From Planctomycetia bacterium (GTDB lineage Bacteria; Planctomycetota; Planctomycetia; Pirellulales; PNKZ01): a stretch of DNA of 64,000 bases. The translations under genes and the position numbers were made by a program. Under the pieces are notes generated by a model. That model did not search any database. It was not told the DNA's origin and worked only from the letters and a program-made list of their open reading frames with translations. The DNA lies in NCBI GenBank assembly GCA_021413845.1, contig JAIOPP010000057.1, positions 81,690-145,689 of the forward strand. The letters run 5' to 3'. Positions 1-30,652 of the stretch are shown here, one piece after another; positions within the stretch are counted from its first letter, which is position 1, and every line of letters starts with the position of its first letter.

Positions 1-303
1 CCACACAAGATCATGATCCCCTGTCGACGCGCGCATACGCCCATCGCTTTGACGTATCCCTGCCGAAGCGACGTCGGTGCTGCGAGTCTTTAAGGATTGA
101 AGAATCGCGGTCATCATCAGGGCATCGCTTCTTTCGACGGCGAGGCAGCATTGAATCGCCACGCTTTCGCAGAGCGTCTTGCGAGCCTGTGCCCGCTGCT
201 CGTCAGGGTGTGGAAAGAAGTGTAACGAAAGGCCGATCAACAGCACGCCGACGACTACGCTCGCGAGCGTTAATGTGATGCGGAAAATTGCGTTGATGCG
301 CAT
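1..303 (-). CDS. Partial CDS (N-terminal 101 codons, runs off the window start): membrane-anchored protein of unknown function
   Basis: ATG at 303 on the minus strand. Translation MRINAIFRITLTLASVVVGVLLIGLSLHFFPHPDEQRAQ... has one N-terminal TM helix and stays open to position 1. It is absent from the ORF track because it has no in-window stop. Same strand as, and 87 nt downstream of, the giant protein gene. Confidence 0.45.
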   Translation of the reverse strand, partial: MRINAIFRITLTLASVVVGVLLIGLSLHFFPHPDEQRAQARKTLCESVAIQCCLAVERSDALMMTAILQSLKTRSTDVASAGIRQSDGRMRASTGDHDLVW

Positions 304-390: not shown

Positions 391-3300
391 TCATCGAGCA
401 CCAAGCGCGCTGCGAGTGTCGAATACGCTGTCGAGTTCGTCGACGTCATGCATGCGCGGGTTGCGACGTCGCTCGTATTCCAATACCGGCAATGGATCGA
501 AGGCCTTCCAGGTCGGCAACGATGATAGCAAGATCGAGGTCAACGATCCGGCCTGAAGCGACCAGACGAGATAGCCGACCGTCAAGGTAGCGGTGATCCC
601 CGCCGTGCCGACGACCAAACACTCCACGGTCGTGTAGGCTTGCTCTTCGATCGTCGCTACGATCGTCTGCCAAGGAATCGACGCCTCTTGCGACGACCAA
701 CCTTCGGAAGTCTTAGCCGCCACCGGCCCTTTCGTCAGCAGCGCGGTTCGCACTCCGTGAGTCGCCTTACTGCCCGCGCTCGAGACACTGCTCCAATCGA
801 CGTTCTCACACCGATCTGCATAGAGCGTGTCGTCATCGATCGATTCGGAGGGGAGTACCGGTGGTCTCTCGTCGTGTGTTATTTTTGACTCTCGATCAAG
901 TAACGATGCCGTGTCGAAGCCTGACATTTGACGTACGTTCTCCAACATGCCGAGCAGCGTCGGGCGTGGAAGAGAAATCGTCGGCCAAAATACAACGTCA
1001 TGCGATGATGTGCCGGGAATCAACGCGACTTCCGAACGGCCGACGCTCGAGCCACCTGCGCCGTGATCATCCATAGTTTCCGGCTGTGGACTCGGGAATA
1101 CTGCCGCTTGCGAGATCGCAATCGTTGTCTGAATGGTTTGCGAACTCATGCCGTCGCGCGGTTCGTCGGTCACAACCAGAGAGACTTCGCCGTTGGTCGC
1201 AATTCCCCGAAAGCGCAGTCCGGCAAGCGCCGCATTGACATTCGTAAGCGTGCCGCTGAACGCCAGTAACGCGCCGCTCGAGCCCGCGCCGTCGACGAAA
1301 GTGAGCCCCGCCGTTTGCGCAAGCGCGACGGTGCCGTTGTGAGCCGTCAAAGTTACGGTCAATCTCGGATCTTCGGCATACGCATCTTCGATGGTGATTC
1401 CGCTTCCCGTAGTCGGAGAAAAAACGGCGAGATAGTTATCGGCACTAAGCGCGATCGGATTTCGCAATTGAATTCGATCCGCGGTGGGTTGCACCACCAC
1501 AGCGACTTGCGCCGCGGCAGTCCGTGCCCCGCCTCCTCCATTTAGCCCGAGATCGTCGACCGACACTGCAAAGCCTGTCGATCCGCGATAACTCTCGTTC
1601 GGGCTAAACTGAAGGCCATCGAGCGCAGAGTTCAAATTGCTCAAGCTGCCGCGAACGGTGATGGCGTCGTCGCTCGTGCCGTCACCGACGACGAAGGTGA
1701 GCCCGGCAGTTTGCGCCAACGTCAATGTGCCGTGGTTCGCGTTGAGCGTAAGCTCGATCGAGCCGGAGCCCGCATCGTTATCGCCGACGACCATGGCCCG
1801 ACCGTTCGCCGTCGAGAAAATCAGCCCGGTTTGAAACGCCGTCGTTTGCGCACCCGGCAGCGTCAAACTCGGCGCGTCGTTCACGGAATCGACGGCTAGA
1901 CTTAGCGTAGCGGTCGTGATTTGTGCCGGCCCCGACCCATTATGCCCAAGATCATCGACCGAGACCTGCAACTGCGCAGCGCCATAGAAGTTCGCCGTAG
2001 GATGGAATGCCGCTCCGTTGAGCGCCGCATTCATTGCAGCGGAAGTGCCTTGAAATATCATCAAGGCATCGTCGGTTCCGTCGCCAACCAAGAACGTCAG
2101 CCCACTGGTTCCGCTCAGCGAGATCGAACCGTTCGTTCCGGCAAGAGTCATTTGCAGCGGCAGCCCGGCAGCGTCGGGATCGGCAACCGCGATTGCATTC
2201 CCTCCCGCCGTGGAAAAGACCAATGCCGTGTCTTCGTTCGTCGCCTGCGCACTCGGCAGCGTGATGATCGCGGGCTCGTTCACGTTCGTTACCGTGACGA
2301 AAATCGTTTGCGTCGTGAAGAACGTCCCATCCGACGCACGGACGATTACCTGATAAACGTCGTCCCCATCCGAATCGGCCGGGGCTTCGAAATCGGGAGC
2401 GACGACGAAGCTTAGCGCACCGGTCGCTCCGTCGATCATAAAGCGTCCGGCATCCGTTCCGCCGCTGATCGAATAGTTGAGCGAGGGGGTCGGCAAATCG
2501 GCATCGGATGCCGCCACCGTAGTTACCGAAGTCGTATTTTCCGCCGCGCTCACGTTTGCTGATGCCCCGCCACCATTGCTCGTCATCGTAGGCGTGTGAT
2601 CGTTTACCGGAGTGACCGTGATCGAGATGTTGCTCGAAGTCGTTTGTGGGCCCCCTGTGCCGCTATAGCCGAGATCGTTGCTTACGACTCCGAGCGTTGC
2701 AGTACCGGCGAAATCGAGCGTCGGCATGAACGTGAGCCCATTCAAGGCCGCATTAATATCGACGATCATGCCCGTGAACGTCATCACGGCATCGGCCGTT
2801 CCGTCGCCGGTCGAGAACGTAAGACCGGATGTGCTGCCGAGCGTCGTCGTTCCGGAAGTTGTCGTAAGGGTCACTCGAATCGGATTCGACGCCGCTCCGG
2901 CATCGGCGATGCCGATCCCATTTCCCATGCCGCTACTAAACACGAGCGGCGTGTCTTCAAGCGTGGCTTGCGTTCCCGGCAGCGTGTGGATCGGAGCTAC
3001 GTTCGTTCCATCGATGAATCGTTGCAGAAATACTCCGTCGGCGTCACCGGCGCCGTTGCCGCTCCAAGCGACGACGAAGCCGTTCGAGCTTTGCATTGCA
3101 ACCGATGGCGACTGTTGCGAACCCGTTATCGTCCGATTGACGAGAGTTTCCGATGAGATGGCAGTCCCTGTCGCGTCGAATTGACGAAAGTAGACGCCGT
3201 CGCCGCCGGCGGCATCCTGATTAGTGCTTGTCCATGCGACGACGAAACTCCCCGAAGCATCCATCGCGATGCGCGATTCACGTTGGTCTCCCGCCGTTGT

Positions 3301-4332
3301 GACGTTCATCGCCGTCTCACCACCGACCTTTGCTCCCGTTGAATCGAACCGTTGTCCGTAGACTCCGTATCCGCTTCCGTCTTGAGCTTGGCTCGACCAT
3401 GTGACGAGGAAGTTTCCGGCACCATCCGTAGCAACCGCCGCTTCGGTCTGATTTCCTGCGGTGGTCGTATTAATTCGGAACTCGGCACCTAAAGGGTTGC
3501 CGGCGGCATCGAAGCGCCGACCGTACACGCCGGTGCCTGAGCCGTCCTGTGCAGCGCTCGTCCAAACGACGATGAAGTTTCCCGCAGCGTCGTAAGCAAC
3601 CGTCGAGAGATTCTGATCGCCGGACATCGCTGTATTGACGAGAAACGCAAGCCCATCCGGGGAACCGTTCGCATGGAACTGTCGCGCGAACACGGCATCG
3701 CCGCTGCCGTCGCCGAAAGCTCTCGTCCACGAAATCGTGAAGTCGCCCGCCGCATTGATCGCGATCGAAGGATCATGGAAGTCTTCCAACAGAGCCAGCG
3801 CGACTTGCTGTTCCGGACCGATCCGGCTTCCCGCGGCATCGTAGCGCTGAAAGTAGATCCCTTCGCCGAGAATCGTGATTCCAAGCACATCGAGGATCGG
3901 GCCCGACCATGCGACGACGAATGTCCCATCGGCCGCCTTGGCAACGGCAGCTTCCGTCTGATCGCCGAGAATCGTCGTGTTTACTTGAAACTCAGCCCCT
4001 TGTTTGTTGCCCGTCGCATCGAACCGTTGTGCGTAGATCCCCGTTCCGGTTCCATCCTGGCTATCGCTTGCCCAAGCGACGACGAAGGCCCCCGTGGGAT
4101 CCGCGGCGACGGCTTGCTGCGTTTCGTTTTGAATCGATTGCACGGACGTCGTCTCCGTGTTCACGAGAACCTCGCCGCCGGCCGGAGTCGCGCTAAACAA
4201 AATGCGATCTTCGTACTCGACGCAATCGAGCCTGCGGATTGTCCCCGGCATCGCGCGAAGAGGCGTTGCACGATCGTGCCGCAGCATTTTGCGCAGTCGA
4301 CTGCCGATGCGGTGAATGATGTGCGAACCCAT
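391..4332 (-). CDS. Giant secreted/surface protein with beta-propeller-like tandem repeats, adhesin-type modules, a cadherin-like domain and a C-terminal hydrophobic anchor
   Basis: 1313-aa ORF. N-terminus has ...RRLDCVEYEDRILFSATP (LEDR-x-L-x-SA type motif). aa ~52-440 hold seven tandem ~50-aa repeats (FVVAW/FIVVW/FLVTW ... DGSG.G(V/I)Y.(Q/R)RFD..G). aa ~447-1075 hold four related ~120-130-aa modules (LPG.QAT.EDT.LVFS ... LNGL.F.P ... VND(A/H)(P/T)). A cadherin-like unit lies at aa ~585-685 (DADLPTPSLNYSISGGTDAGRFMIDGATGALSF...VTNVNEP). Hydrophobic stretch at aa ~1225-1275. Confidence 0.85.
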   Translation of the reverse strand: MGSHIIHRIGSRLRKMLRHDRATPLRAMPGTIRRLDCVEYEDRILFSATPAGGEVLVNTETTSVQSIQNETQQAVAADPTGAFVVAWASDSQDGTGTGIYAQRFDATGNKQGAEFQVNTTILGDQTEAAVAKAADGTFVVAWSGPILDVLGITILGEGIYFQRYDAAGSRIGPEQQVALALLEDFHDPSIAINAAGDFTISWTRAFGDGSGDAVFARQFHANGSPDGLAFLVNTAMSGDQNLSTVAYDAAGNFIVVWTSAAQDGSGTGVYGRRFDAAGNPLGAEFRINTTTAGNQTEAAVATDGAGNFLVTWSSQAQDGSGYGVYGQRFDSTGAKVGGETAMNVTTAGDQRESRIAMDASGSFVVAWTSTNQDAAGGDGVYFRQFDATGTAISSETLVNRTITGSQQSPSVAMQSSNGFVVAWSGNGAGDADGVFLQRFIDGTNVAPIHTLPGTQATLEDTPLVFSSGMGNGIGIADAGAASNPIRVTLTTTSGTTTLGSTSGLTFSTGDGTADAVMTFTGMIVDINAALNGLTFMPTLDFAGTATLGVVSNDLGYSGTGGPQTTSSNISITVTPVNDHTPTMTSNGGGASANVSAAENTTSVTTVAASDADLPTPSLNYSISGGTDAGRFMIDGATGALSFVVAPDFEAPADSDGDDVYQVIVRASDGTFFTTQTIFVTVTNVNEPAIITLPSAQATNEDTALVFSTAGGNAIAVADPDAAGLPLQMTLAGTNGSISLSGTSGLTFLVGDGTDDALMIFQGTSAAMNAALNGAAFHPTANFYGAAQLQVSVDDLGHNGSGPAQITTATLSLAVDSVNDAPSLTLPGAQTTAFQTGLIFSTANGRAMVVGDNDAGSGSIELTLNANHGTLTLAQTAGLTFVVGDGTSDDAITVRGSLSNLNSALDGLQFSPNESYRGSTGFAVSVDDLGLNGGGGARTAAAQVAVVVQPTADRIQLRNPIALSADNYLAVFSPTTGSGITIEDAYAEDPRLTVTLTAHNGTVALAQTAGLTFVDGAGSSGALLAFSGTLTNVNAALAGLRFRGIATNGEVSLVVTDEPRDGMSSQTIQTTIAISQAAVFPSPQPETMDDHGAGGSSVGRSEVALIPGTSSHDVVFWPTISLPRPTLLGMLENVRQMSGFDTASLLDRESKITHDERPPVLPSESIDDDTLYADRCENVDWSSVSSAGSKATHGVRTALLTKGPVAAKTSEGWSSQEASIPWQTIVATIEEQAYTTVECLVVGTAGITATLTVGYLVWSLQAGSLTSILLSSLPTWKAFDPLPVLEYERRRNPRMHDVDELDSVFDTRSALGAR
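1108..2994 (-). repeat. Coding repeats: four ~120-130-codon adhesin-type modules (one cadherin-like insert) inside the giant protein gene
   Basis: Recurring blocks: PLVFSSGMGNGIGIADAG...LNGLTFMP...VNDHTP; ALVFSTAGGNAIAVADPD...LNGAAFHP...VNDAPS; LIFSTANGRAMVVGDND...LDGLQFSP; LAVFSPTTGSGITIEDAY...LAGLRFRG. Coordinates are approximate. Confidence 0.65.
3013..4179 (-). repeat. Coding tandem repeats: about 7 copies of a ~50-codon unit inside the giant protein gene
   Basis: Protein-level periodicity read directly from the translation (units ending FVVAWASD, FVVAWSGP, FTISWTRA, FIVVWTSA, FLVTWSSQ, FVVAWTST, FVVAWSGN). Coordinates are approximate. Confidence 0.7.
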
Positions 4333-4607
4333 GACTGCGCTCCCTGATCGAACTCAACCCGACCGAATGTTCTAAGAAAGAATTAGCTCACGCGATCGGC
4401 GCTTATGTGGAACACCACGCCGGATGATGACAAGCACCACATGGACGGAACCCGCGGAAAGACGGCAGTTACGGATTGCAGTGTCGCGAGTCGACAAGAT
4501 GGATTTACGAAATGCAGCGGTCGATGAGATCGAACGACGCAACGCCCATGCAACGCCGGCATGGTGACGTCGTCTGAAACCCATGCTTTATCAAGCTCGA
4601 TCTCGCG

Positions 4608-6392
4608 ATGCCCTATCTCTTCGCAATTAGAACGATTCAACTGCTCTGCTTTTGCCTCGCGACTGCGAGCGAAGTGCGGGTCGTTGCGCAGTCGATTCGG
4701 CCCCTCCCGCCGATCTCGGCGGAGACGAGTGTCGAAACATTGCAACCTGTTCTTCCAGCCGAGGACTTCAAGCTCGCTCTCGTCGACAACGAGCTCTGGT
4801 GGGACACGGCGCTACTCTCGTCGCTCAACGCCACGGAGTGCCCGCTAGCCATCGGGCTCGAAGCGGTCGTCAATCGCGTGCTGATGTTCTCTCCCCACGT
4901 GCGGATCGTTGCCGACGAGCCAGTGATTCGCGGCGCTCAAGTCACCGATGCCGCGTCGCGCTTCGATCCTCGCGCGTTTCTCGACTCGAAGTTCACCGAC
5001 ACGAGCGATCCGGTCGGCAATTTACTTACCACCGGCGGGGCGAGCCGCTACCTCAACCAAAACTTCGTTTCGTCGGGCGGCTTGCGACAAACGTTCGCTT
5101 CCGGCGCCAAGGCCGAGGTCGCACAGAAATTCGGTTACGAAGACAGCAACTCGCGATTCTTCATTCCACCGAACCAAGGCACCTCGCGCATCACGCTTAC
5201 GATCACGCAACCCCTCTTGAACGGCTCGGGCAAAGCCTACAACCTCAGCTCGATCTACTTAGCGGAGCTCGGCGTCGGCGCAGCCGTCGGTCGGATGCAA
5301 AAGGAATTGCAAGACATCATCATCGAATCGCATCGCGCCTACTGGGATCTGCGCGTGCAACGTGCCGCATTGCTGCAAAGAGCGCGCCTCAAGCAACAAG
5401 CGATCGATGTCGTCGCCGAATTGGAGGCGCGCGTCGATTTCGACGTCGTGCAGAGCCAGATCGTGCGAGCGAGAGCAGCCGCCGCTACGCGCGAGGCCGC
5501 GGTGATCCGTTTCGGAACCAACGTCGCCAACGCCGCGACACGGCTGCGTGCACTGTTGAACGATCCGAACCTACTGAATCCTCCGCAAGAGTTGATTCCG
5601 TTCGATCGCCCGTGGTCGGAGCCTGCTGAGCCGAATGTCGCGCAATCGCTGACGGACGCTTTGCAATATCGACCGGAAATTCAACAAGCATTTATCGAGG
5701 TCCGGGCGGCGAGCATTCAAGCCGATGTTTCGCAAAACGAACTCATGCCGCTCCTTAATCTCGTCTTGGGAACCTACGTTGCCGGACTTCAAGGCAATTC
5801 CGATGTCGGCCAAGCCTGGGTCGATCAATTCAGCGTCGGCCGTCCGACCTATTGGACCGGACTACAATTCGAGTACCCGCTGTTCAATCGAGGCGCTAAT
5901 GCGCGCCTAACGCAGCGCCGCGTGGAACTTCGCCAAGCGACAAACCGCTTGCAAGCCGCCATGCTCAATATACGAAGCGAAACCGAGATCGCGGTGCGAG
6001 AGGTATCGACGCTCTACCGCGAGATGCTCGCGAAACGTGATGCGATTCGAGCCAACGCCGCCGAGATCGACTATCTCACATCGCGACGTAGCCTCATGAT
6101 CGGCGACCCGCAAACGGCCGGCGTCGTGCTCGACGATCTCTTATCGGCCCAAGAACGACGAGCCAACGCTGAGTTCGACTTCGTCGCGGTTCAGGCGGCC
6201 TACAACGTCTCGCTCGTGAACTTGAATCGAGCAACCGGCACCTTACTGCAAACGCAACAAGTCCGCATCGACGACGCTTGCCAAGGGGGCGTCCCGACGT
6301 TGCAAGTCCGCTTGGATAAATCGGAAGCTCACCTTCCTATTGCGGCCCAACTCGGCGACGGCGTGCCCGCCGGCAACGAGGTGCCACGATGA
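4608..6392 (+). CDS. TolC-like outer membrane efflux protein (OEP family)
   Basis: 594-aa ORF with an N-terminal signal-like hydrophobic segment (LLCFCLATASEV). Two OEP-type helical repeats (LTDALQYRPEIQQAFIEVRAASIQADV...; LLSAQERRANAEFDFVAVQAAYNVSLVNLNRATG). Its stop overlaps the next start (ATGA at 6389-6392). Confidence 0.8.
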   Translation: MPYLFAIRTIQLLCFCLATASEVRVVAQSIRPLPPISAETSVETLQPVLPAEDFKLALVDNELWWDTALLSSLNATECPLAIGLEAVVNRVLMFSPHVRIVADEPVIRGAQVTDAASRFDPRAFLDSKFTDTSDPVGNLLTTGGASRYLNQNFVSSGGLRQTFASGAKAEVAQKFGYEDSNSRFFIPPNQGTSRITLTITQPLLNGSGKAYNLSSIYLAELGVGAAVGRMQKELQDIIIESHRAYWDLRVQRAALLQRARLKQQAIDVVAELEARVDFDVVQSQIVRARAAAATREAAVIRFGTNVANAATRLRALLNDPNLLNPPQELIPFDRPWSEPAEPNVAQSLTDALQYRPEIQQAFIEVRAASIQADVSQNELMPLLNLVLGTYVAGLQGNSDVGQAWVDQFSVGRPTYWTGLQFEYPLFNRGANARLTQRRVELRQATNRLQAAMLNIRSETEIAVREVSTLYREMLAKRDAIRANAAEIDYLTSRRSLMIGDPQTAGVVLDDLLSAQERRANAEFDFVAVQAAYNVSLVNLNRATGTLLQTQQVRIDDACQGGVPTLQVRLDKSEAHLPIAAQLGDGVPAGNEVPR

Positions 6393-8179
6393 ACCCGATG
6401 CTGTCATCGACTTCGATGCCTTCGACTTGGTGGAACCGCACGTTTCAGCGACGTCGCCGGCCCGCTTTCGATGTTGCGGAAACACTTCACTCGTTTTCGT
6501 GTGCGGTCGAGCGACACCTCGGCATCACGCCGTTCGATTCCCAGTTGCACGCCGCTACGTTGCTTGCACAAGGTCGTGCCGTCGAGATGCGCACCGGCGA
6601 AGGGAAGACTCTCGCCGTCGCCGCAGCAGCTGCCGCCCGTGCCATTGCGGGCCGAAGCGTGCATGTTGCGACCGTCAACCGCTACCTTGCCGACCGAGAT
6701 TTCCATACGTTCGCGCCGGTCTTGCGTAGCATGGGCTTGAGCGTCGGACTAGTCGACGGCAGAGCGACTTCGGAGATCAAACGGCAAGCCTACGGCTCGC
6801 AAATCGTCTACGCGACGGGCTACGATCTGGGGTTCGACTATCTGCGCGATCAGCAACGTCGTGCGCGGCAAAACTCGTCGCGACTCGGCGATGAGCTTGT
6901 GCGTCGTTTATCCGGGATCGACAACACGCACGATATGCCGATGCCGCTCGACTTCGTCATTATCGACGAAGCCGATTCGGTGTTGCTCGACGAAGCGTCC
7001 GTTCCGCTATTGCTCGCCGAATCGACGAACCAAAATGTCAAAGATGCCGCAGCCACCGAATCGGCCGCACAGTCTTGTCGGGAGCTTAATCTTGGGCGAG
7101 ATTATCTCGTAGATTCGCATAGTCGCGTCATCTCATTAACGATGAATGGCGCCGATACGATCGAACACCGGCTGAGACCACGGCCCGAGCTTTTGCTCCT
7201 CCGGCCGTGGCGGCAGTATGTCGAACATGCGCTTATCGCGCATCTCCTGTTGCAACGCGATGTGGACTATATCGTCTTCGACAATCGGATTCACCTAGTC
7301 GACACGACGACGGGTCGCATCTTCGACGACCGACGCTGGTCCGAGGGACTGCAGCAAGCCGTTGAATGGAAGGAACGTCTCCCGTTTTCGCAGCCGACGA
7401 TCGGATCTGCGAGTATTACGCGTGCCTGTTTTTTTCGCTCTTATCGCACGATGGCGGGAATTTCCGGGACTCTCATCGAAGCGGCCGGTGAACTTCGCTC
7501 GACGTTCGGACTCACGGTCGAAGCGATCCCACCGCGACTTCCTTCGCGTCTTATCGAACTTCCGACTCGCTACTTCGCAACTCCGGAAGCGCGACGTCGC
7601 GCCGTGGCATTAGAGACGGAGGCTATGCAACGACTCGGTCGGCCAGTGCTCGTGGGCTGTCGTACGATCGCGGAAAGCGCCGCAATTGCCGAAGAATTCA
7701 AACGACGACGCATTTCGCATCGGGTACTCGATGGCCGGCAAACCGAAGCGGAAGCGGCGATCATCGCCGAAGCCGGCCGGAGCGGTATTGTTACCATCGC
7801 GACGAACATGGCCGGTCGCGGGACCGATATTCGTCTTGGTAAGAGTGCGAAGGATTGCGGCGGCCTTCATGTCATCGGCATCGAGCGCAACGATTCGGCG
7901 CGCATCGATCGGCAACTACTAGGTCGTGCCGGAAGACAAGGAGATCCCGGCTCGGGCCGCTACTTCGTCGCCGCTTCCGATTCGTTGATCGCAAATGATC
8001 CGAAGCTGATCGCTTCGATGGTTCAATCCGCCGAAGCAAACGGCGAGGCTCACGGCAACTTCGAGCAGCAATGGACCGAATGCAGGCGCGTCGTCGAGCT
8101 CGATGCTCTCAAGCGACGAGCATCTATAGAACAACGGTATTTACGACGAGCGGACTCGACGACCATTCTGCTCGGATAA
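6389..8179 (+). CDS. Truncated SecA-family ATPase (NBD1-PPXD-NBD2 only, 596 aa)
   Basis: SecA signature blocks: FDSQLHAATLLAQGRAVEMRTGEGKTL (Walker A at 6596-6610), SVHVATVNRYLADRD, IVYATGYDLGFDYLRD, IIDEADSVLLDEASVPLLL, DVDYIVFDNRIHLVDTTTGRI...RRWSEGLQQAVEWKE, MAGISGTL, IATNMAGRGTDIRLG, GGLHVIGIERNDSARIDRQLLGRAGRQGDPGSGRYF. The protein ends ~60 aa after the last block, where canonical SecA continues for ~300 aa. Confidence 0.85.
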   Translation: MNPMLSSTSMPSTWWNRTFQRRRRPAFDVAETLHSFSCAVERHLGITPFDSQLHAATLLAQGRAVEMRTGEGKTLAVAAAAAARAIAGRSVHVATVNRYLADRDFHTFAPVLRSMGLSVGLVDGRATSEIKRQAYGSQIVYATGYDLGFDYLRDQQRRARQNSSRLGDELVRRLSGIDNTHDMPMPLDFVIIDEADSVLLDEASVPLLLAESTNQNVKDAAATESAAQSCRELNLGRDYLVDSHSRVISLTMNGADTIEHRLRPRPELLLLRPWRQYVEHALIAHLLLQRDVDYIVFDNRIHLVDTTTGRIFDDRRWSEGLQQAVEWKERLPFSQPTIGSASITRACFFRSYRTMAGISGTLIEAAGELRSTFGLTVEAIPPRLPSRLIELPTRYFATPEARRRAVALETEAMQRLGRPVLVGCRTIAESAAIAEEFKRRRISHRVLDGRQTEAEAAIIAEAGRSGIVTIATNMAGRGTDIRLGKSAKDCGGLHVIGIERNDSARIDRQLLGRAGRQGDPGSGRYFVAASDSLIANDPKLIASMVQSAEANGEAHGNFEQQWTECRRVVELDALKRRASIEQRYLRRADSTTILLG

Positions 8180-8195
8180 GAGGTTTCGTTCAATC

Positions 8196-9065
8196 ATGAT
8201 GAGACTAAGGAAACAAAGCATGTCGCTACGATTCTTCGACACGATTCTCTTGCTACAGTTGGTTGTAGCAGCGCAGGCTCATGCCGAGACGTTCGAGAGT
8301 TTTACGGAACCTTCACGAACGATCGACGTCGCTCCCGCCGAGACGGGAGTCGTCGCCCGCGTCGAAGTTCGCGAGGGAGATCGTGTCCGCAAAGGTCAAG
8401 TACTGGCATCGCTCGACAAGGAAGTTCTGTTGATCGCTCGCGAAATCGCCCAAGCGTCGGTCGATGCGACGGGCCGCAAGGATGCGGCGCGAGCCGAAGC
8501 GGAATTGCGCAAGACTCGACTCGACAAGATTCGTACGCTGCGCAGCTCAGGCCATGCCGCCTCCGAAGAAACGCAACGGGCGGAGATGGAGCACACAGCG
8601 GCAAAGGGACAGCATCAGTCGCTCGAAGAGCAGGCGATCGTCGACCGGCTCGAAGTCCGGAAGATCGACTCGATGATCGAACGGCGACTTGTTCGGAGCC
8701 CGATCGACGGCATCGTCACGCACATTCACTATGATCACGGAGAGTTCGTCACTCCCATCGCGCCGACCATCGTTACGGTCGTACAGCTCGATCCCCTTCG
8801 TGCCGTATTCAATCTACCGCAGTCGGCCGCTCGCGCTTTGAAGCCCGATGCGACGGTTGTGCTGAATTTTCCCGAGGAAGAAGAAGGAGTTCCGGGGAAA
8901 GTGGAATTCATCGCGCCGGTAATCGATGCGGATAGCGGCACCGTGCGTGTGAAAGTCCTTATTGATAACATCGATCAGACACGCCTGGCTGGTCGACGTT
9001 GCACGCTCCGTCTCGACGAAGTGCCGGCGCAACAACCGACCGCACCGCAAATCGCGAATCCTTAA
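8196..9065 (+). CDS. HlyD-family membrane fusion / periplasmic adaptor protein
   Basis: 289 aa with a signal peptide (LLLQLVVAAQAHA). Lipoyl-like hairpin halves (VARVEVREGDRVRKGQVLASLD ... SPIDGIVTHIHYDHGEFV), a central coiled coil, and a beta-barrel segment (GTVRVKVLIDN). 16-nt gap to the upstream gene. Confidence 0.8.
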   Translation: MMRLRKQSMSLRFFDTILLLQLVVAAQAHAETFESFTEPSRTIDVAPAETGVVARVEVREGDRVRKGQVLASLDKEVLLIAREIAQASVDATGRKDAARAEAELRKTRLDKIRTLRSSGHAASEETQRAEMEHTAAKGQHQSLEEQAIVDRLEVRKIDSMIERRLVRSPIDGIVTHIHYDHGEFVTPIAPTIVTVVQLDPLRAVFNLPQSAARALKPDATVVLNFPEEEEGVPGKVEFIAPVIDADSGTVRVKVLIDNIDQTRLAGRRCTLRLDEVPAQQPTAPQIANP

Positions 9066-9081
9066 ACAGACTCAGAACATC

Positions 9082-10461
9082 ATGATTCCGACTTTTATTC
9101 GTTCTGATCGACGCCACGATTCGGCAGTTCAGCAACCGAACGACGACTTACGCCGGAGCCACGACACTTCAGCCGCGCTTTTGGAGCTTGCGAAGCAGTT
9201 CGTTATCGCCACGGACGATGAAACGGCTTGCCGATGCTTGGCGACAGGCTTGAAAGAGCTGGGGAATTTAGAATCCGTAGCGATCGGTTTAATTGCGGGC
9301 TCCCGATGTAGGCTCCGCGCTATCTCCGGCATAGCGACGATCGAGTCGAATGCCCCGAACGTGCGAACTTGGGAAGCGGCACTTACCGAATGCGCTACAA
9401 CAGCCAACTTCAGGCTGGATTCGGCAACCGAGGCAATGACTTCCGTCGACGGAACTCAGGAACGGCCTTGGTGCCTTCCTCTGAAATCCGGCGATGGCCG
9501 TGTTTTCGGTGCGTGTGCGATAGTACTTCCAACGGCACTCGACGACACAGCAAATCGATCGTACCTACGAACGGTCGTCGACGTGCTCGGTCCACTCTTC
9601 GCTACGGCGATGCAGGCGCGCCGCTCTTCGGCGTTGGTTGTCAGCTTGAAACGAATCGGCAATGCCATTTCCGGCCGTCGACGCTGGGCCATCGTCGTTT
9701 GTGCAATGATCGCGACGATGATCACTCCCTTGCCTTTCACCGTCCGTTGCGATTGCGAGCTACAACCCAAGCAACAACGTGTCGTTGCGGCCCCTTTCAA
9801 TGCCGTTTGGCGGCAAAGCCACGTTCGACCGGGCGATTTCGTCACGGAAGGTCAACCGCTCGGTCTTCTCGACTCGTCCGAGTTGCTGAGAGAACTTGCT
9901 GCGGCGACGGCCGATCGAGATCGAGCCGCTAAATCGAGCGACGTGAATGCCGCTGCCGGAAAAACGGCTGCCGCACAAATCGATCGTTTGGAAGTGCGAC
10001 GTGTCGAGGAACGAAGGTCTCTACTCATGCGCCGTCTGGAAAATATCGAATTGAAGAGTCCGATTACGGGAATCGTGATGAGTGGCGAATGGGAACGCGC
10101 GGAAGGGGCCCCGATCAAGCAAGGAACCGTGCTCTATGAGATCGCGCCGCTAGATCGAATCGTCGTCGAGACATTCGTTGCCGAAGGCGAGATCGAACGC
10201 CTGCGGCCGGGCTCCTCGGCTACCGTGGTACTAGATGCTCGGCCTTACGAGAACTATACCGGTACGGTCGAGCGCATCTATCCCCGAGCGGAGATTCACG
10301 ACGACGCGAACGTTTTTATCATCGAAATCACACTGGATAATCCCGACCGCGTCCTGCGACCCGGCATGAAAGGACACGTTTACGTGGAGACGGAAACTCG
10401 TTCGATAGCGAAGCTATTCACCGATCGCTTTTGGCCGACATATGCTTGGATGAGTTGGTAA
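9082..10461 (+). CDS. HlyD-family adaptor with a GAF-like cytoplasmic N-domain and one TM helix
   Basis: Start moved to ATG 9082 because the track start at 8962 overlaps the upstream gene. The N-terminal ~215 aa has a GAF-like pattern (tentative). TM helix WAIVVCAMIATMITPLPF. HlyD motifs follow: RPGDFVTEGQPLGLLD, a coiled coil, SPITGIVMSGEWERAEGAPIKQGTVLYEIAP, RPGMKGHVYVE. Confidence 0.7.
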   Translation: MIPTFIRSDRRHDSAVQQPNDDLRRSHDTSAALLELAKQFVIATDDETACRCLATGLKELGNLESVAIGLIAGSRCRLRAISGIATIESNAPNVRTWEAALTECATTANFRLDSATEAMTSVDGTQERPWCLPLKSGDGRVFGACAIVLPTALDDTANRSYLRTVVDVLGPLFATAMQARRSSALVVSLKRIGNAISGRRRWAIVVCAMIATMITPLPFTVRCDCELQPKQQRVVAAPFNAVWRQSHVRPGDFVTEGQPLGLLDSSELLRELAAATADRDRAAKSSDVNAAAGKTAAAQIDRLEVRRVEERRSLLMRRLENIELKSPITGIVMSGEWERAEGAPIKQGTVLYEIAPLDRIVVETFVAEGEIERLRPGSSATVVLDARPYENYTGTVERIYPRAEIHDDANVFIIEITLDNPDRVLRPGMKGHVYVETETRSIAKLFTDRFWPTYAWMSW

Positions 10462-10462
10462 C

Positions 10463-12664
10463 GTGAGTATGAAAATCGGTTCGCCCTCATCTCCTGCGAC
10501 GCAAACTCACATTCTTCATCCGGAACGGCTCGTCGTCGCCGCTCGTCGCGACTTAAGGGTTTCGACTCGACACGATCGCGGCGAGCTTTTCTACTTCGTC
10601 GAAGATCCGTTACGAAACAAATTCTTCCGCTTAGGAAAAGCGGAGCATGCGCTATTCTTAGCACTGGACGGAACGCGAACGCTGGCCGAAGCCGCGGCCC
10701 ACACGGCATCGGCGTCGGGCTCACAAGCTCTCACGCAAGACGAAGCAGTCTTGCTCGGGGAGTGGCTTGTACGATCAGGCTTGGCATCGAGCGACATCGG
10801 TCTTGCCTCACGTAGTCCGACGATGTCACAAGTCCCGACAAGACATGACCGGTGGAATCTTTGGTCGTTTCGGATCACGCTGGGAAGTCCCGACCGTGCG
10901 CTGGAAACCCTGGACCCGTTCGGTCGATTTCTCTTCGGGCGAACATTTCTCGTGCTCTGGTTCGCGATTCTCGCAGCGGCGCTGCTGCAAGCGTTAACGG
11001 CTTGGCCGATGCTTGCGAAAAACTCGCCCATCGACTGGGGTTGGCAAGGTGCTTTGTCGCTCTTCGCGGCTTGGTGCGGCCTCAAGATTTTGCATGAACT
11101 AGCACACGCGATCGCTTGTCGACGGTTCGGCGGCAACGTCGGCAACGTGGGACTCGCATTCGTGCTGGGAATGCCGTCGCCGTTCGTCGACGTATCGACG
11201 ATCTGCCGCGTGCCCGACAAGTGGAAGCGGATCGTCGTCTCATTGGCAGGGATTTACATCGAGATTTTCGTAGCGGCGCTGGCGATGATCGCCTGGAGTG
11301 CTTTTGAAGATCCCTTAGTAAGGCAAGGAGCACTCGCCGTCGTCTGGGCTGCAGGAATCGGATCGGTGATTTTCAACCTGAATCCGCTCATGCGATTCGA
11401 CGGGTACTTCGCACTCTCGGATGCCATGGAGATGCCTAACCTATCCGCCGTCGGCCAAGAGGAATCATGGCGGCTTCTACGACGTTTCTTGTTCGGTATC
11501 GACGAAGCGGAGATCTCCGCCAAGGGACGTCGCCCCGCCTGGGTTGCCTGGTACGGCATCGCGGCGATGCTGTGGCGCACGTTCGTTCTCGGCTCGTTGT
11601 TGCTACTAGCGATCGCGAAGCTAGGAGCATTCGGAACCATTTTTATTTCGATCCCTCTATTTCTCGCTTGGTTAGCAAAGCGCCGAACTCTCCGCCGTTC
11701 CCTAATCCGAGGTGGAGCAAACGTCGGTAGGAATCGACAACGGCAAGCCGCGACCTGCACGGCACTCGGGCTGCTCTCGGCGATCTTGTTCTACTGCTTA
11801 GATCCAAGCACGAAGGAACTCGCAGCGGTGGTCGACTATGAACCGCTCGAAGTCGTGCGAGCGGGCACAGCCGGATTCGTTCGACAAGTCTTCGTATGTG
11901 ATGGCGAGCAAGTCTTCGCGGGACGTAAGATCGCGGAATTAGACAACGCCGAATTGCTTGCCGAGATCGGTCAAGTCGAACTCGCGATCGAACAATCCAC
12001 GATTCGCTCGCGCATGCATCGGCAAGCTAAAACAACCTCGAAAGAGCAAACGGAGCGATTGCAACGCCAAGTCCTCGAAACGGAGTTGCGGGAGCTTCAT
12101 CACCAAAGAGAAGGCCTGACCATCGTCGCCGCAACGGACGGAACGATCGTCTCGCGAGGCATCGATCGCTATGTGGGGCTACGGTTGGAAAAAGGGGATG
12201 AGATCGCCTCGATCGCCGGCGACTCAGCGAAAACGCTTAAGATTGCCGTGCCGCAACGCTTGGTGACGGCGATCGCGAATGCCGAGGATCGCACTGCGGA
12301 CGTCCTGATTCACGGACATCGAAAACCGGTATCGATTCGTTTGGCGACGTGCGACCCTCAAGCCTCGACGCGCTTGATCCACCCGGCGATGAGCGTGGAA
12401 CATGGTGGCATGCTGAGCATACGCCGGCGGGAAGCGACGCCGGACGAAGCCGGAGAAGGCAAATCAAGGAACCGCCGCGATACGACGATCGCGGAAACAG
12501 TAGAACCTTGTTTTCAGATGACGGCGCGAGCGGATGAAGAAACGCTGCGAGATGTGGCCGCCGGCCGTACGGCAATCGTGAAGGTTCGCATTCCATGGCG
12601 AAGCGCGCTCCACGATTATTGGTCGCGCTCCTCGGCTTGGCTGCATCATCCGCAAGCGGAATGA
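10463..12664 (+). CDS. Fusion protein: PqqD/RRE-like N-domain + M50 (site-2 protease family) membrane metalloprotease core + C-terminal HlyD-like domain
   Basis: 733 aa, starting at GTG 10463 or ATG 10469, 1 nt after the upstream stop. aa ~20-110 read ...LFYFVEDPLRNKFFRLGKAEHALFLALDGTRTLAEAA...LGEWLVRSGLA (PqqD-like, tentative). The polytopic core carries HELAH (11093-11107) and NLNPLMRFDGYF (M50 motifs). The C-terminal ~290 aa has a coiled coil (AELDNAELLAEIGQVELAIEQ) plus beta segments (ATDGTIVSRG), as in HlyD. Confidence 0.75.
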   Translation: MSMKIGSPSSPATQTHILHPERLVVAARRDLRVSTRHDRGELFYFVEDPLRNKFFRLGKAEHALFLALDGTRTLAEAAAHTASASGSQALTQDEAVLLGEWLVRSGLASSDIGLASRSPTMSQVPTRHDRWNLWSFRITLGSPDRALETLDPFGRFLFGRTFLVLWFAILAAALLQALTAWPMLAKNSPIDWGWQGALSLFAAWCGLKILHELAHAIACRRFGGNVGNVGLAFVLGMPSPFVDVSTICRVPDKWKRIVVSLAGIYIEIFVAALAMIAWSAFEDPLVRQGALAVVWAAGIGSVIFNLNPLMRFDGYFALSDAMEMPNLSAVGQEESWRLLRRFLFGIDEAEISAKGRRPAWVAWYGIAAMLWRTFVLGSLLLLAIAKLGAFGTIFISIPLFLAWLAKRRTLRRSLIRGGANVGRNRQRQAATCTALGLLSAILFYCLDPSTKELAAVVDYEPLEVVRAGTAGFVRQVFVCDGEQVFAGRKIAELDNAELLAEIGQVELAIEQSTIRSRMHRQAKTTSKEQTERLQRQVLETELRELHHQREGLTIVAATDGTIVSRGIDRYVGLRLEKGDEIASIAGDSAKTLKIAVPQRLVTAIANAEDRTADVLIHGHRKPVSIRLATCDPQASTRLIHPAMSVEHGGMLSIRRREATPDEAGEGKSRNRRDTTIAETVEPCFQMTARADEETLRDVAAGRTAIVKVRIPWRSALHDYWSRSSAWLHHPQAE

Positions 12665-12697
12665 AGCCCTCCATATATGCCTGACGGCAATAGAGGA

Positions 12698-28228: not shown

Positions 28229-28369
28229 TCGCGACGGAGATTCCCTGCCGAACTCGAAGCGCTTGCTTCCGAAGCTGGGCGATGAACCCGAGGGGTTGAT
28301 CGCTTAAGACTTGGGAACGGAGCGAAACGAGCGGCGGTTTCCAGGGAACCTTCACTACCGTCGTCGACT

Positions 28370-29842: not shown

Positions 29843-29881
29843 TTTCCGTTTGCCGAAGCGATCTTCAAGAGGAGATAAGTC

Positions 29882-30262
29882 ATGAGCAGACACGTTTTAC
29901 TTTGCGACGACGAGATCGCGATTATTCGCGCAGCGGAAATCAAACTCACACGTGCCGGCTTTCGCGTCACCTGCTGCTCCGACGGCCAAGAGGCGTTCGA
30001 GACGATTCAACGAGACAAGCCCGACTTGCTGATCTCGGATTGCCAAATGCCTCGCATGGGAGGGCTGGAGCTTATTCGCCGACTGCGAGCAGACGAAGCG
30101 ACGTGCGACTTGCCGATCATGATGCTCACGGGCAAGGGCTACGAATTACCGCGTGAAGAATTGCAGACGAAGTACGGCGTGATCGAAATCATCGCAAAGC
30201 CGTTCAGCCCACGCGACGTATTGAAAATCGTCGAGAACCTTTTCGTTGCGAGCTCGACATGA
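29882..30262 (+). CDS. Single-domain response regulator (CheY-like receiver)
   Basis: LLCDDE ... PDLLISDCQMPRMGGLELIRRLR ... MLTG ... KPF. No output domain. Confidence 0.9.
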   Translation: MSRHVLLCDDEIAIIRAAEIKLTRAGFRVTCCSDGQEAFETIQRDKPDLLISDCQMPRMGGLELIRRLRADEATCDLPIMMLTGKGYELPREELQTKYGVIEIIAKPFSPRDVLKIVENLFVASST

Positions 30263-30585: not shown

Positions 30586-30652
30586 CCCCCGATATCGTTC
30601 AGACGCGCCTCGCAACCACGTTCGCACGCTCCACGCTCGCACGGCATAACCT

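What the first reader, a model, noticed from the sequence alone, without database searches (positions are those of the whole stretch)
4608..12664. Five-gene TolC / truncated-SecA / triple-HlyD / M50 operon: tripartite-exporter architecture with no ABC, RND or MFS pump
Seen: five co-directional genes with a 4-nt ATGA overlap (6389) or gaps of 16 nt or less (8179->8196, 9065->9082, 10461->10463). They encode an OEP/TolC-like OMP, a 596-aa SecA-family ATPase, a signal-peptide HlyD adaptor, a GAF-like-TM-HlyD adaptor, and a PqqD-like + M50 (HELAH, NLNPLMRFDG) + HlyD-like fusion. Established: TolC ducts and HlyD-type adaptors normally partner with an inner-membrane ABC (T1SS), RND or MFS energiser, and SecA normally docks on SecYEG. 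Inference: the only ATPase here is a SecA paralog and the only polytopic inner-membrane protein is the M50 fusion. The operon may therefore encode an undescribed envelope-spanning export/processing machine. In that model a SecA-like motor would feed an unfolded polypeptide or peptide to an S2P-like membrane module coupled through HlyD domains to a TolC-like channel.
Basis: partly seen in the sequence, partly recalled or inferred. Interest (0 to 1): 0.9.

Follow-up and report, generated by a model that had tools for sequence, protein, structure and literature searches.

The report
SecA-like, ABC-less exporter beside giant adhesin
The five genes are real and form a TolC/adaptor export machine with a short SecA-like ATPase and a membrane protease in place of the usual pump; the gene module was already described by comparative genomics in 2015, and here it appears linked to neighbouring giant adhesin-like proteins that share an N-terminal 'LE-D/P-R-x-L-F-S-A' tag.

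Summary
Observation confirmed. Five co-directional genes (4608-12664, +) encode an OEP/TolC protein, a 596-aa SecA paralog (NBD1+PPXD+NBD2, no wing or two-helix finger, ATPase motifs intact), a small HlyD adaptor, a GAF-family/TM/HlyD adaptor, and an RRE(PqqD-like)/site-2-protease/HlyD fusion.

It is not undescribed. Kamneva, Poudel & Ward (PLoS One 2015, PMC4452313) reported this module and drew the same inference: a SecA-like ATPase replaces the ABC protein and the M50 protein is the membrane component. I found no experimental follow-up.

- SecA is adjacent in 52 of 85 relatives.
- One ABC-like ORF occurs in 86 loci.
- ATPase motifs are at least 90% conserved in 49 short SecAs.

New evidence here:
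- The third most common neighbour is a giant cadherin/DUF4347 protein.
- It carries an N-terminal LE[DEP]RxL[FLM][SD]A motif (NCBIfam LEPR-XLL) and no Sec signal peptide.
- The window's copy is the divergent 1313-aa gene at 391-4332.
- The fusion's N-terminal domain models as a leader-peptide-binding RRE next to an S2P core with invariant HExxH...D.

Best reading (inferred): a dedicated exporter and leader peptidase for LEPR-tagged giant surface proteins. The locus is a new member of a computationally known, experimentally uncharacterised kind.

The parts
1..303 (-). 5' end (first 101 codons) of a gene that runs off the window's left edge. It is an ortholog of the membrane-anchored N-terminal part of a PAS-GGDEF-HD (c-di-GMP turnover) protein that sits next to the module in Lignipirellula cremea. 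Possible regulator; association is tentative.
   Evidence: Clustered with L001:4833-7538 and homologs in 7 loci. When extended by Logan contig L091, it shows 36% identity over 199 aa, E 3e-36.
391..4332 (-). 1313-aa cadherin / 'tandem-95' repeat protein, divergently transcribed from the operon. It is the candidate cargo. It has no N-terminal signal peptide.
   Evidence: Pfam Cadherin 1e-6; NCBIfam tand_rpt_95 2e-11. It carries the only LE.R-type motif found in the six-frame translation of the whole 64-kb window. Homologous giant proteins are the third most common neighbour of the module, in 29 loci. No hydrophobic 15-mer lies near the N-terminus.
4183..4215 (-). N-terminal tag YEDRILFSATP (residues 40-50 of the 1313-aa protein), preceded by a basic stretch. 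It is the local version of the LEPR-XLL motif.
   Evidence: Motif alignment of 31 neighbours gives the consensus (K/R)R.L.LE.LE[DEP]R[VIL]L[FLM][SD]A.P. NCBIfam NF012209 LEPR-8K is reached by the L001 and L005 neighbours (17.2 and 18.6 bits, cutoff 17) but not by the window copy.
466..621 (-). C-terminal hydrophobic segment plus a conserved 'PTWxxFDPLP[VI]L' element of the 1313-aa protein (residues about 1238-1289). Possible membrane anchor or sorting element.
   Evidence: Hydropathy peak at 1238-1256. 37% identity, E 5e-10, with the C-terminus of the 2553-aa LEPR protein of L031.
4333..4607 (.). 275-bp divergent intergenic region between the candidate cargo gene and the operon; presumed promoter region.
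   Evidence: ORF coordinates. The consensus promoter scan was uninformative.
4608..6392 (+). 594-aa outer-membrane factor (OEP/TolC family) with an N-terminal signal peptide.
   Evidence: Pfam OEP 7e-21; TIGR01844 3.6e-21, below its cutoff. Hydrophobic N-terminus. An OEP is adjacent in 28 of 85 related loci.
6389..8179 (+). 596-aa short SecA paralog: NBD1 + preprotein-crosslinking domain + NBD2 and a roughly 60-aa helical tail. It lacks the helical wing domain, the two-helix finger and the C-terminal linker. It has no TM segment.
   Evidence: Pfam and NCBIfam hits, 452 bits against the 800-bit secA cutoff. It aligns to B. subtilis SecA residues 72-546 only. The motifs GEGKT, DEAD, GxxGT, TNMAGRGTDI and GRxxRQGDPG are at least 90% conserved in 49 family members. 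The top 120 homologs are all 568-725 aa.
8196..9065 (+). 289-aa periplasmic adaptor (HlyD/RND_mfp type) with a signal peptide.
   Evidence: TIGR01730 at 138.5 bits, above the 94.9 cutoff; HlyD_D23 4e-18. N-terminal hydrophobic segment at residues 8-26.
9082..10461 (+). 459-aa protein: cytoplasmic GAF-family domain (shortened here), one TM segment (201-223), and a periplasmic HlyD adaptor.
   Evidence: HlyD_D23 1e-23; TM segment. 14 of 22 orthologs hit Pfam GAF. It is adjacent to the M50 fusion in nearly every locus surveyed.
10463..12664 (+). 733-aa fusion: cytoplasmic RRE/PqqD-like leader-binding domain (residues about 24-116), a 7-TM site-2-protease-like zinc protease core (about 160-448), and a periplasmic adaptor with an alpha-hairpin (about 450-733).
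   Evidence: NF041824 daptide_HExxH 3e-47, below its cutoff. AF2 pLDDT 91. Foldseek matches: MexA/MacA/AcrA for the C-terminal part; 3b4r S2P and the RRE-leader complexes 6jx3_B and 5v1v_A for residues 1-450. The family holds 7479 clusters at 50% identity with E<=1e-30.
11093..11107 (+). HELAH zinc-binding and catalytic motif (H211, E212, H215).
   Evidence: Invariant in 109 homologs.
11375..11407 (+). NLNPLMRFDGY (residues 305-315), the S2P-type third zinc-ligand motif (D313).
   Evidence: L309, R311, D313 and Y315 are invariant; N305, N307 and P308 are at least 90% conserved.

Best explanation
The operon is a member of the conserved 'secondary SecA_DEAD / HlyD / GAF-HlyD / M50-HlyD (/OEP)' module. 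This module is a type-I-like, envelope-spanning protein export apparatus that has no ABC transporter.

Shown here:
- All parts are intact, conserved and syntenic across Planctomycetota, Verrucomicrobiota, Proteobacteria, Myxococcota, Bacteroidota and Campylobacterota.
- The short SecA keeps a complete ATPase and preprotein clamp but has lost the parts that dock on and insert into SecY.
- The largest membrane protein is a fusion of a leader-peptide-binding RRE fold, a site-2-protease core with invariant catalytic residues, and a periplasmic adaptor with an alpha-hairpin.
- The module is recurrently next to giant cadherin/DUF4347 repeat proteins. These have no Sec signal peptide and share an N-terminal LE[DEP]RxL[FLM][SD]A (LEPR-XLL) motif.

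Inferred:
- The adjacent 1313-aa LEPR-tagged protein is the cargo.
- Its N-terminal tag is bound in the cytoplasm by the RRE domain.
- The SecA-like motor threads the unfolded chain N-terminus first.
- The S2P active site, near the cytoplasmic face, removes or processes the tag.
- The three adaptor domains (small HlyD, GAF-HlyD, M50-HlyD) form the periplasmic tube that docks on the OEP trimer.
- The GAF domain and the neighbouring c-di-GMP enzyme provide regulation.
For: - Gene content and junctions.
- Published description of the module: PMC4452313.
- Synteny in 5 of 5 SecA-anchored relatives.
- Synteny in 85 M50-anchored loci: SecA in 52, OEP in 28, LEPR ORF in 29, plus 6 N-terminally cut giant ORFs.
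- No ABC: one ABC-like ORF in 86 loci. No pump beside SecA-less loci.
- SecA truncation and motif conservation.
- RRE, S2P and adaptor folds. PqqD Pfam hit in 5 of 18 aligned family members.
- Invariant HExxH...D.
- Topology: 7 hydrophobic helices and a basic loop at 407-427 before the last TM place the RRE in the cytoplasm and the adaptor in the periplasm.
- Motif specificity: 24 of 25 matches lie within the first 160 aa of ORFs, out of 581,830 aa scanned. There is a single match in the whole window, in the adjacent gene.
- LEPR-8K HMM hits.
- No hydrophobic signal in 0 of 31 LEPR N-termini.
Against: - No experiment exists for any member.
- Adjacency is not proof of a cargo relationship.
- Only about a third of loci show a LEPR protein within 10 kb. 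Many loci are truncated, and genomes probably hold several such proteins.
- 17 of 54 evaluable loci have no SecA within 10 kb, so the motor role of SecA is not universal or is supplied in trans.
- The window's own cargo candidate falls below the LEPR-8K HMM threshold.
- The RRE structural matches have weak Foldseek E-values (0.2-0.4), despite probability 0.99 and TM 0.66.
- Nothing shows what forms the inner-membrane conduit.
- Three of five reverse look-ups ended at contig ends with no module on the visible side.
Confidence: 0.55

Rival explanations
1. A RiPP or bacteriocin maturation and export system. The RRE domain binds the leader of a small precursor peptide, the HExxH intramembrane protease removes it (as in daptide or epipeptide pathways), and the HlyD/OEP parts export the product. 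The giant neighbours would be coincidental.
For: - The best NCBIfam match of the fusion is the daptide biosynthesis intramembrane metalloprotease (3e-47), with the YydH/LiaK epipeptide protease at 9e-7.
- RRE fold matches to lasso-peptide B1 proteins.
- NCBI names some homologs 'PqqD family peptide modification chaperone'.
Against: - The daptide model scores 161 bits against a 300-bit cutoff.
- Clustering of 86 loci found no recurrent small precursor gene or modifying enzyme. The conserved neighbours are SecA, OEP and giant proteins.
- A SecA-type polypeptide motor is not expected for a short peptide.
- The giant neighbours carry a leader-like N-terminal tag of their own.
Confidence: 0.12
2. 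A LapA-like regulated retention and release system. The giant adhesin is exported by another route or by this duct. The M50 protease, under GAF and c-di-GMP control, cleaves the N-terminal tag to release or anchor the adhesin rather than to permit export.
For: - c-di-GMP genes recur nearby: PAS-GGDEF-HD in L001 and at the window's left edge, PilZ in L002, L003 and L087, and RR-HD in L005.
- A GAF sensor domain sits on one adaptor.
- Giant repeat adhesins with a TolC-type OMF resemble Lap/MpIBP systems (own knowledge; PMC8277102 reviews these).
Against: - No ABC exporter, LapD or LapG homolog is in the loci.
- The protease active site and the RRE are predicted on the cytoplasmic side, not in the periplasm where LapG acts.
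- The c-di-GMP gene cluster was found in only 7 loci.
Confidence: 0.15
3. A regulated-intramembrane-proteolysis or small-molecule efflux device unrelated to protein export. The S2P domain would cleave a membrane regulator, or the adaptors and OMF would serve an unlinked pump. The short SecA would be a chaperone or a decaying remnant.
For: - Classical S2P enzymes act in signalling (own knowledge).
- The small adaptor meets the RND_mfp subfamily cutoff.
- SecA is absent from about a third of loci.
Against: - SecA catalytic motifs are at least 90% conserved across 49 members, and its length is uniform.
- No RND, MFS or ABC partner lies beside the loci.
- The protease is covalently fused to a TolC-docking adaptor in thousands of clusters.
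- No anti-sigma or sigma pair is conserved nearby.
Confidence: 0.08

Closest known systems
Secondary SecA_DEAD / T1SS-related conserved locus (Kamneva, Poudel & Ward 2015, PLoS One, PMC4452313)
   Same: Same gene set: a short SecA lacking the wing/scaffold, a HlyD protein, a GAF-HlyD protein, a weak-M50-HlyD protein and sometimes an OEP. Same phyla. Same proposal that SecA_DEAD replaces the ABC ATPase and that the M50 protein provides the membrane part.
   Different: That paper named no substrate. Its text has no hit for cadherin, adhesin or PqqD, and it states the biological role is completely unknown. This window adds a new planctomycetal member; its best species-level relative shares only 34% identity in the M50 fusion. 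The LEPR-tagged giant neighbour is an addition made here.
Canonical type I secretion systems (HlyBD-TolC; LapBCE adhesin exporters)
   Same: Tripartite logic: an outer-membrane factor plus periplasmic adaptors with alpha-hairpins. The likely cargo is a giant repeat adhesin without a Sec signal. c-di-GMP genes lie nearby, as in Lap systems.
   Different: There is no ABC transporter. The ATPase is SecA-like. The membrane component is an S2P protease fused to an adaptor. There are three different adaptor proteins. The putative signal is N-terminal (LEPR-XLL), not a C-terminal or RTX signal.
SecA / accessory SecA2 translocase ATPases
   Same: Homologous NBD1-PPXD-NBD2 with all helicase and ATPase motifs. 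About 35-40% identity to B. subtilis SecA over 500 residues.
   Different: Lacks the helical wing domain, the two-helix finger and the C-terminal tail. Scores far below every NCBIfam SecA/SecA2 cutoff. Encoded with adaptors and an OMF rather than with SecY2/Asp or SecYEG.
RiPP leader-peptide machinery (RRE/PqqD domains; daptide and YydH/LiaK HExxH intramembrane proteases; C39-peptidase ABC exporters)
   Same: An RRE fold and an HExxH membrane protease sit in one polypeptide. The logic 'recognise an N-terminal leader, cleave it, export' parallels peptidase-containing ABC transporters.
   Different: The likely substrate is a protein of 1,300 to more than 11,000 aa. No modifying enzymes are present. 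The protease is S2P-like, not C39. The energiser is SecA-like, not ABC.
SecA_DEAD/PPXD domains embedded in giant Omnitrophota proteins (West-Roberts et al. 2023 preprint, 10.1101/2023.11.21.568195)
   Same: A SecA motor lacking the scaffold/wing is associated with giant surface-related proteins and is suggested to aid their own export.
   Different: There the SecA domains are part of the giant protein itself. Here the SecA is a separate 600-aa protein in an operon with adaptors, a protease and an OMF.

Membership tests
Secondary SecA_DEAD / T1SS-related module (PMC4452313) | SecA_DEAD + PPXD protein lacking the wing/scaffold domain | tested here: met
   596 aa. Aligns only to B. subtilis SecA residues 72-546. 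Pfam shows no SecA_SW hit.
Secondary SecA_DEAD / T1SS-related module (PMC4452313) | Co-encoded HlyD, GAF-HlyD and weak-M50-HlyD proteins, with an optional OEP | tested here: met
   The same order is found in L001, L004-L008, L012, L015, L017 and L022.
Secondary SecA_DEAD / T1SS-related module (PMC4452313) | A canonical full-length SecA also present in the genome (making this one 'secondary') | not testable with these tools
   Only one SecA-like ORF lies in the 64-kb window. The rest of the genome is not available.
Canonical type I secretion system | Inner-membrane ABC transporter (HlyB type) | tested here: not met
   No ABC signature in the window's locus. One ABC-like ORF in 86 related loci.
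Canonical type I secretion system | Membrane fusion protein and TolC-family outer-membrane factor | tested here: met
Canonical type I secretion system | Substrate with a C-terminal, uncleaved secretion signal or RTX repeats | tested here: inconclusive
   The candidate cargo has an N-terminal conserved tag and a C-terminal hydrophobic element, and no RTX hit. The direction of export is unknown.
Housekeeping SecA / SecA2 (NCBIfam TIGR00963, TIGR04221, TIGR03714 and others) | Score above the curated equivalog cutoff; presence of HSD/HWD and the two-helix finger | tested here: not met
   452 bits against 800; 427 against 725; 369 against 930. The C-terminal third is absent.
Housekeeping SecA / SecA2 | Intact Walker A and B, motif III, motif V, motif VI | tested here: met
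Site-2 protease (Peptidase M50) | HExxH in a TM helix plus a downstream NxxPxxxxDG zinc ligand | tested here: met
   H211, E212, H215 and D313 are invariant in 109 sequences.
Site-2 protease (Peptidase M50) | Pfam PF02163 gathering score; S2P fold | tested here: inconclusive
   The window protein scores 17.3 bits against 27.2. All 18 aligned members hit M50 at E<=0.01. The top Foldseek hit for residues 1-450 is M. jannaschii S2P 3b4r, E 2e-3, TM 0.45.
Daptide HExxH intramembrane protease (NF041824) | Equivalog cutoff of 300 bits; a daptide precursor and modification genes nearby | tested here: not met
   161.5 bits. No such neighbours in 86 loci.
RRE / PqqD-like leader-binding domain | Three-strand plus three-helix winged-helix fold; Pfam PF05402 | tested here: inconclusive
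   The window protein has no PF05402 hit. Of the 18 aligned members, 5 hit, best 4e-6. The model's secondary-structure order is b-b-b-a-a-a. Foldseek matches 6jx3_B and 5v1v_A at probability 0.99, TM 0.66-0.67, but E 0.2-0.3. Leader binding itself was not tested.
LEPR-XLL domain proteins (NCBIfam NF012209 LEPR-8K): status of the 1313-aa neighbour | N-terminal LEPRxLL-type motif scoring at least 17 bits | tested here: inconclusive
   The window protein is not reported at E<=1, but it carries YEDRILFSATP in register with 30 other neighbours. The L001 and L005 neighbours reach 17.2 and 18.6 bits.
Lap-type adhesin system | LapD c-di-GMP receptor and LapG periplasmic protease acting on an N-terminal retention module | tested here: not met
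   Neither LapD- nor LapG-like genes appear among the conserved neighbours. Only generic GGDEF, HD and PilZ genes are found.

The most novel reading that the evidence does not exclude
The module is a distinct, ABC-independent, double-membrane-spanning protein secretion system. A SecA-derived motor and an RRE/site-2-protease/adaptor fusion would recognise an N-terminal LEPR-XLL leader and export giant adhesins of 1,300 to more than 11,000 aa N-terminus first through a HlyD/TolC duct, cleaving the leader on the way. This would amount to a new numbered secretion system with a defined targeting signal. It is widespread in Planctomycetota, Verrucomicrobiota and several proteobacterial lineages.
Probability: 0.4. 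Interest if true: 0.85.

Novelty: new member of a known kind. Interest (0 to 1): 0.6.

Why it matters
Tripartite TolC systems are thought to need an ABC, RND or MFS energiser, and SecA is thought to work only with SecYEG. This module has neither an ABC/RND/MFS pump nor a SecY partner, yet it is conserved in thousands of sequence clusters.

It has been known on paper since 2015 without any proposed substrate. Linking it to LEPR-XLL-tagged giant adhesins, and to an RRE leader-binding domain fused to the protease, turns 'function completely unknown' into a testable model. The model names a tag, a receptor domain, a protease and a motor.

If confirmed, it would explain how Planctomycetes and other bacteria put enormous signal-peptide-less proteins on their surface. 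It would also define a new targeting signal useful for secretome prediction.

Tried and rejected
- Consensus promoter and terminator scan of 4200-12900: fewer hits than in shuffles, so uninformative.
- Whole-model Foldseek of the 733-aa fusion: all top 50 hits came from the adaptor part. A second model of residues 1-450 was needed to see the S2P and RRE.
- Homolog search with a LEPR+DUF4347 N-terminus: it returned only short or partial proteins. Three of five context look-ups ended at contig ends and say little.
- 'Local loss of an ABC/RND pump': rejected.
- 'SecA pseudogene remnant': rejected.
- 'RiPP cluster': considered because of the daptide-protease and PqqD similarities. Judged unlikely because no precursor or modification genes recur.
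- Literature searches found no follow-up to the 2015 paper and no paper connecting the motif to this module. Terms searched: LEPR-XLL, DUF4347, the M. extorquens locus tags, and SecA/HlyD/M50/PqqD combinations. The 2021 Chemical Reviews survey of tripartite systems does not discuss the module.
- Long N-terminal extensions of some OEPs (790-1000 aa) and a roughly 107-aa ORF between adaptors in some loci gave no Pfam hits.

Full report
**1. Observation**

The window holds five co-directional + strand ORFs at 4608-6392, 6389-8179, 8196-9065, 9082-10461 and 10463-12664.

There is an ATGA start/stop overlap at 6389, two 16-nt gaps and a 1-nt gap.

Profile searches confirm the domain content:
- OEP/TolC: 7e-21.
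- SecA_DEAD 7e-64, PPXD 2e-23, P-loop_SecA 1e-44.
- A small adaptor that passes the TIGR01730 cutoff.
- A second adaptor with a single TM segment and an unassigned 200-aa N-terminal domain.
- A 733-aa protein whose Pfam M50 hit is sub-threshold. It matches the NCBIfam daptide HExxH intramembrane protease model at 3e-47, and it has a HlyD-like C-terminal half.

The flanks are a divergent 1313-aa cadherin-repeat gene (391-4332, -) and a convergent uvrB gene. No ABC, RND or MFS gene is present.

**2. The parts in detail**

*The short SecA.*
- It aligns to B. subtilis SecA residues 72-546 only, which is NBD1, PPXD and NBD2.
- It therefore lacks the helical wing domain, the two-helix finger that enters SecY, and the C-terminal tail.
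- It scores far below every NCBIfam SecA and SecA2 cutoff.
- Its closest 120 database relatives are all 568-725 aa.
- In 49 family members from the loci studied, the Walker A, DExD, motif III, motif V and motif VI residues are at least 90% conserved.
- It is thus a functional ATPase family and not a remnant.

*The 733-aa fusion.*
- It is modelled with high confidence: pLDDT 91, pTM 0.80.
- The C-terminal 280 residues match periplasmic adaptors (MexA, MacA, AcrA, EmrA), including an alpha-hairpin.
- A separate model of residues 1-450 (pLDDT 90) finds the M. jannaschii site-2 protease first.
- It then finds RRE domains crystallised with RiPP leader peptides: lasso-peptide B1 6jx3_B and TbiB1 5v1v/5v1u. 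These matches have probability 0.99 and TM 0.66-0.67 but weak E-values.
- H211, E212, H215 and D313 are invariant in 109 homologs.
- Scanning the 18 aligned members against Pfam gives M50 in 18, HlyD_3 in 15 and PqqD in 5.
- Seven hydrophobic helices and a strongly basic loop before the last one place the RRE and the active site on the cytoplasmic side. The adaptor lies in the periplasm. This topology is my inference.

*The 459-aa protein.*
- Its N-terminal domain has no Pfam hit itself, but 14 of 22 orthologs hit GAF.
- 'GAF-like' therefore holds at family level. The window copy is shortened.

**3. Conservation**

*Contexts anchored on the short SecA.* Five of five contexts contain the GAF-HlyD and M50-HlyD genes. 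Three also have the OEP and the small adaptor.

*Scan anchored on the M50-HlyD fusion.*
- A scan of one genome per species found at least 600 loci.
- The 80 retrieved span Planctomycetota (Pirellulales, Planctomycetales, Phycisphaerae, Brocadiia), Verrucomicrobiota, Alpha-, Beta- and Gammaproteobacteria, Myxococcota, Campylobacterota and Bacteroidota.
- In 85 loci with a complete fusion, a short SecA is adjacent in 52. Among loci with sufficient flank, it is adjacent in 37 of 54.
- An OEP is adjacent in 28.

*Gene orders.* Two orders exist. OEP-SecA-HlyD-GAFHlyD-M50 occurs in Pirellulales-type loci, including the window. HlyD-GAFHlyD-M50-SecA occurs in Phycisphaerae, Verrucomicrobiota and Proteobacteria.

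*Absence of a pump.*
- Only one ABC-like ORF occurs in 86 loci.
- The genes beside SecA-less loci are unrelated: a sigma factor, a methyltransferase, TPR, a peptidase S11, chemotaxis genes and an IS66 element.

*Family size.* An exhaustive profile search finds 7479 clusters at 50% identity with E<=1e-30. The best 150 are almost all 700-750 aa.

**4. Prior knowledge**

The module is not undescribed. Kamneva, Poudel and Ward (2015, PMC4452313) reported 'secondary SecA_DEAD domain proteins' that have lost the wing/scaffold domain. These sit in a conserved locus with HlyD, GAF-HlyD and weak-M50-HlyD proteins, and sometimes an OEP. [quoted passage not shown]

They proposed that the SecA_DEAD protein supplies the ATPase and that the M50 protein may supply the membrane pore. 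They stated that the biological role is completely unknown.

The text of that paper has no hit for cadherin, adhesin or PqqD, and it names no substrate. I found no follow-up work. The 2021 review of tripartite systems does not discuss the module.

A 2023 preprint notes SecA_DEAD/PPXD domains without scaffold/wing inside giant Omnitrophota proteins. It suggests these domains have a role in exporting those proteins.

**5. What this analysis adds: a candidate cargo and signal**

*Giant neighbours.* Every SecA-anchored relative has a giant neighbour of 1,964 to 11,296 aa with DUF4347, Cadherin, Big_9 or CLIPPER domains. Unsupervised clustering of all ORFs in 86 loci ranks this giant-protein family as the third most common neighbour, in 29 loci, ahead of the OEP.

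*A shared N-terminal tag.*
- Their N-termini share a tag with consensus (K/R)R.L.LE.LE[DEP]R[VIL]L[FLM][SD]A.P. It lies 15-70 residues from the start.
- The neighbours in L001 and L005 reach the curated cutoff of NCBIfam NF012209, 'LEPR-XLL domain'.
- The tag is strongly N-terminal. Of 25 regex matches in 581,830 residues of long ORFs, 24 lie in the first 160 residues.
- None of 31 tagged N-termini has a signal-peptide-like hydrophobic stretch. The window's OEP and small adaptor, used as positive controls, do.

*The window's copy.*
- The only match in all six frames of the 64 kb is YEDRILFSATP at residues 40-50 of the divergent 1313-aa cadherin/tandem-95-repeat protein.
- This copy is below the HMM threshold.

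*Reverse test.*
- Of 120 DUF4347 N-terminal homologs, 78 match the regex, and others are near-misses or truncated.
- Five were picked only for contig length. Two have the module immediately upstream: one with SecA and one without.
- The other three sit at contig ends and show no module on the visible side.

*c-di-GMP genes.*
- They recur nearby: GGDEF-HD, PilZ and RR-HD genes.
- The truncated gene at the window's left edge is an ortholog (E 3e-36) of the PAS-GGDEF-HD gene found beside the Lignipirellula module.

**6. Mechanism**

*Shown.*
- An intact OMF.
- Three adaptor domains.
- A soluble SecA-type ATPase with a preprotein clamp but without SecY-interacting parts.
- A catalytically competent S2P core fused to an RRE fold and to an adaptor.
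- Recurrent adjacency to signal-peptide-less giant proteins with a conserved N-terminal tag.

*Inferred.*
- The tag is a leader recognised by the RRE.
- The SecA-like motor drives N-terminus-first translocation.
- The S2P site processes the leader at the cytoplasmic face.
- The adaptors bridge to the OMF.
- GAF and c-di-GMP inputs regulate the system.

*Open points.*
- What forms the inner-membrane conduit is unknown.
- Whether SecA is essential is unknown, since 17 of 54 evaluable loci lack it nearby.
- The role of the cargo's conserved C-terminal hydrophobic 'PTWxxFDPLP' element is unknown. It is shared with the L031 protein.

*Rivals.* The rivals are a RiPP exporter, a Lap-like release device, and a signalling protease or efflux accessory. 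They are less consistent with the conserved neighbours and with the absence of precursor, modification, LapD/LapG or pump genes.

**7. Verdict**

Its claim of novelty is not right, because the module was published in 2015.

The locus is a new, fairly divergent member of a computationally known but experimentally uncharacterised kind.

The interest lies in the still-open mechanism and in the cargo/leader hypothesis developed here. That hypothesis makes the system directly testable.

Noticed in passing
window 24019-32404: A type II secretion / type IV pilus-like cluster downstream: secretin (24019-26472), TPR protein (26375-28228), histidine kinase (28370-29842) and a PilB/T2SSE ATPase with an MshEN domain (30653-32404).
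   Followed up: no
window 46423-50397: A 1324-aa protein with a single FtsK/SpoIIIE domain (residues 748-925) and long unassigned flanks.
   Followed up: no
window 466-621 (-); L031 about 12630-12790: The window's 1313-aa protein and the 2553-aa LEPR protein of L031 share a C-terminal hydrophobic segment plus a 'PTWxxFDPLP[VI]L' element (E 5e-10). Other giant neighbours (L004, L029, L035, L042, L019) instead end in a conserved 'PIF[ST]G..EPGTTL..IYD...AD.GGNW..FP...PH.M.I' domain. There are thus two C-terminal classes of unknown role.
   Followed up: partly
L020, L021, L023, L083, L048, L087: Complete LEPR-giant / OEP / HlyD / HlyD / M50-HlyD loci with no short SecA within 10 kb and no alternative ATPase or pump nearby. 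It is unknown what energises them.
   Followed up: partly
L001 12117-13285: In Lignipirellula cremea, two SMI1/SUKH immunity-like genes are inserted between the short SecA and the small adaptor. This hints that some cargo may carry toxin domains.
   Followed up: no
L012 1937-4945; L021 3976-6495; L023 4353-6737: The OEPs of several related loci are 790-1000 aa, with a 500-650-aa N-terminal extension that has no Pfam hit. ORF starts were not verified.
   Followed up: partly
L004 12918-13241 and three other loci: A small ORF of about 107-135 aa recurs between the small adaptor and the GAF-HlyD gene in 4 loci. It has no Pfam hit and is absent from the window.
   Followed up: no
L086 6626-8596: The short SecA of this long-read metagenome contig is split into two ORFs (365 + 244 aa). 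This is probably a frameshift or assembly error rather than decay.
   Followed up: no
window 60891-60965 (-): tRNA-Val (CAC), the only tRNA in the window.
   Followed up: no
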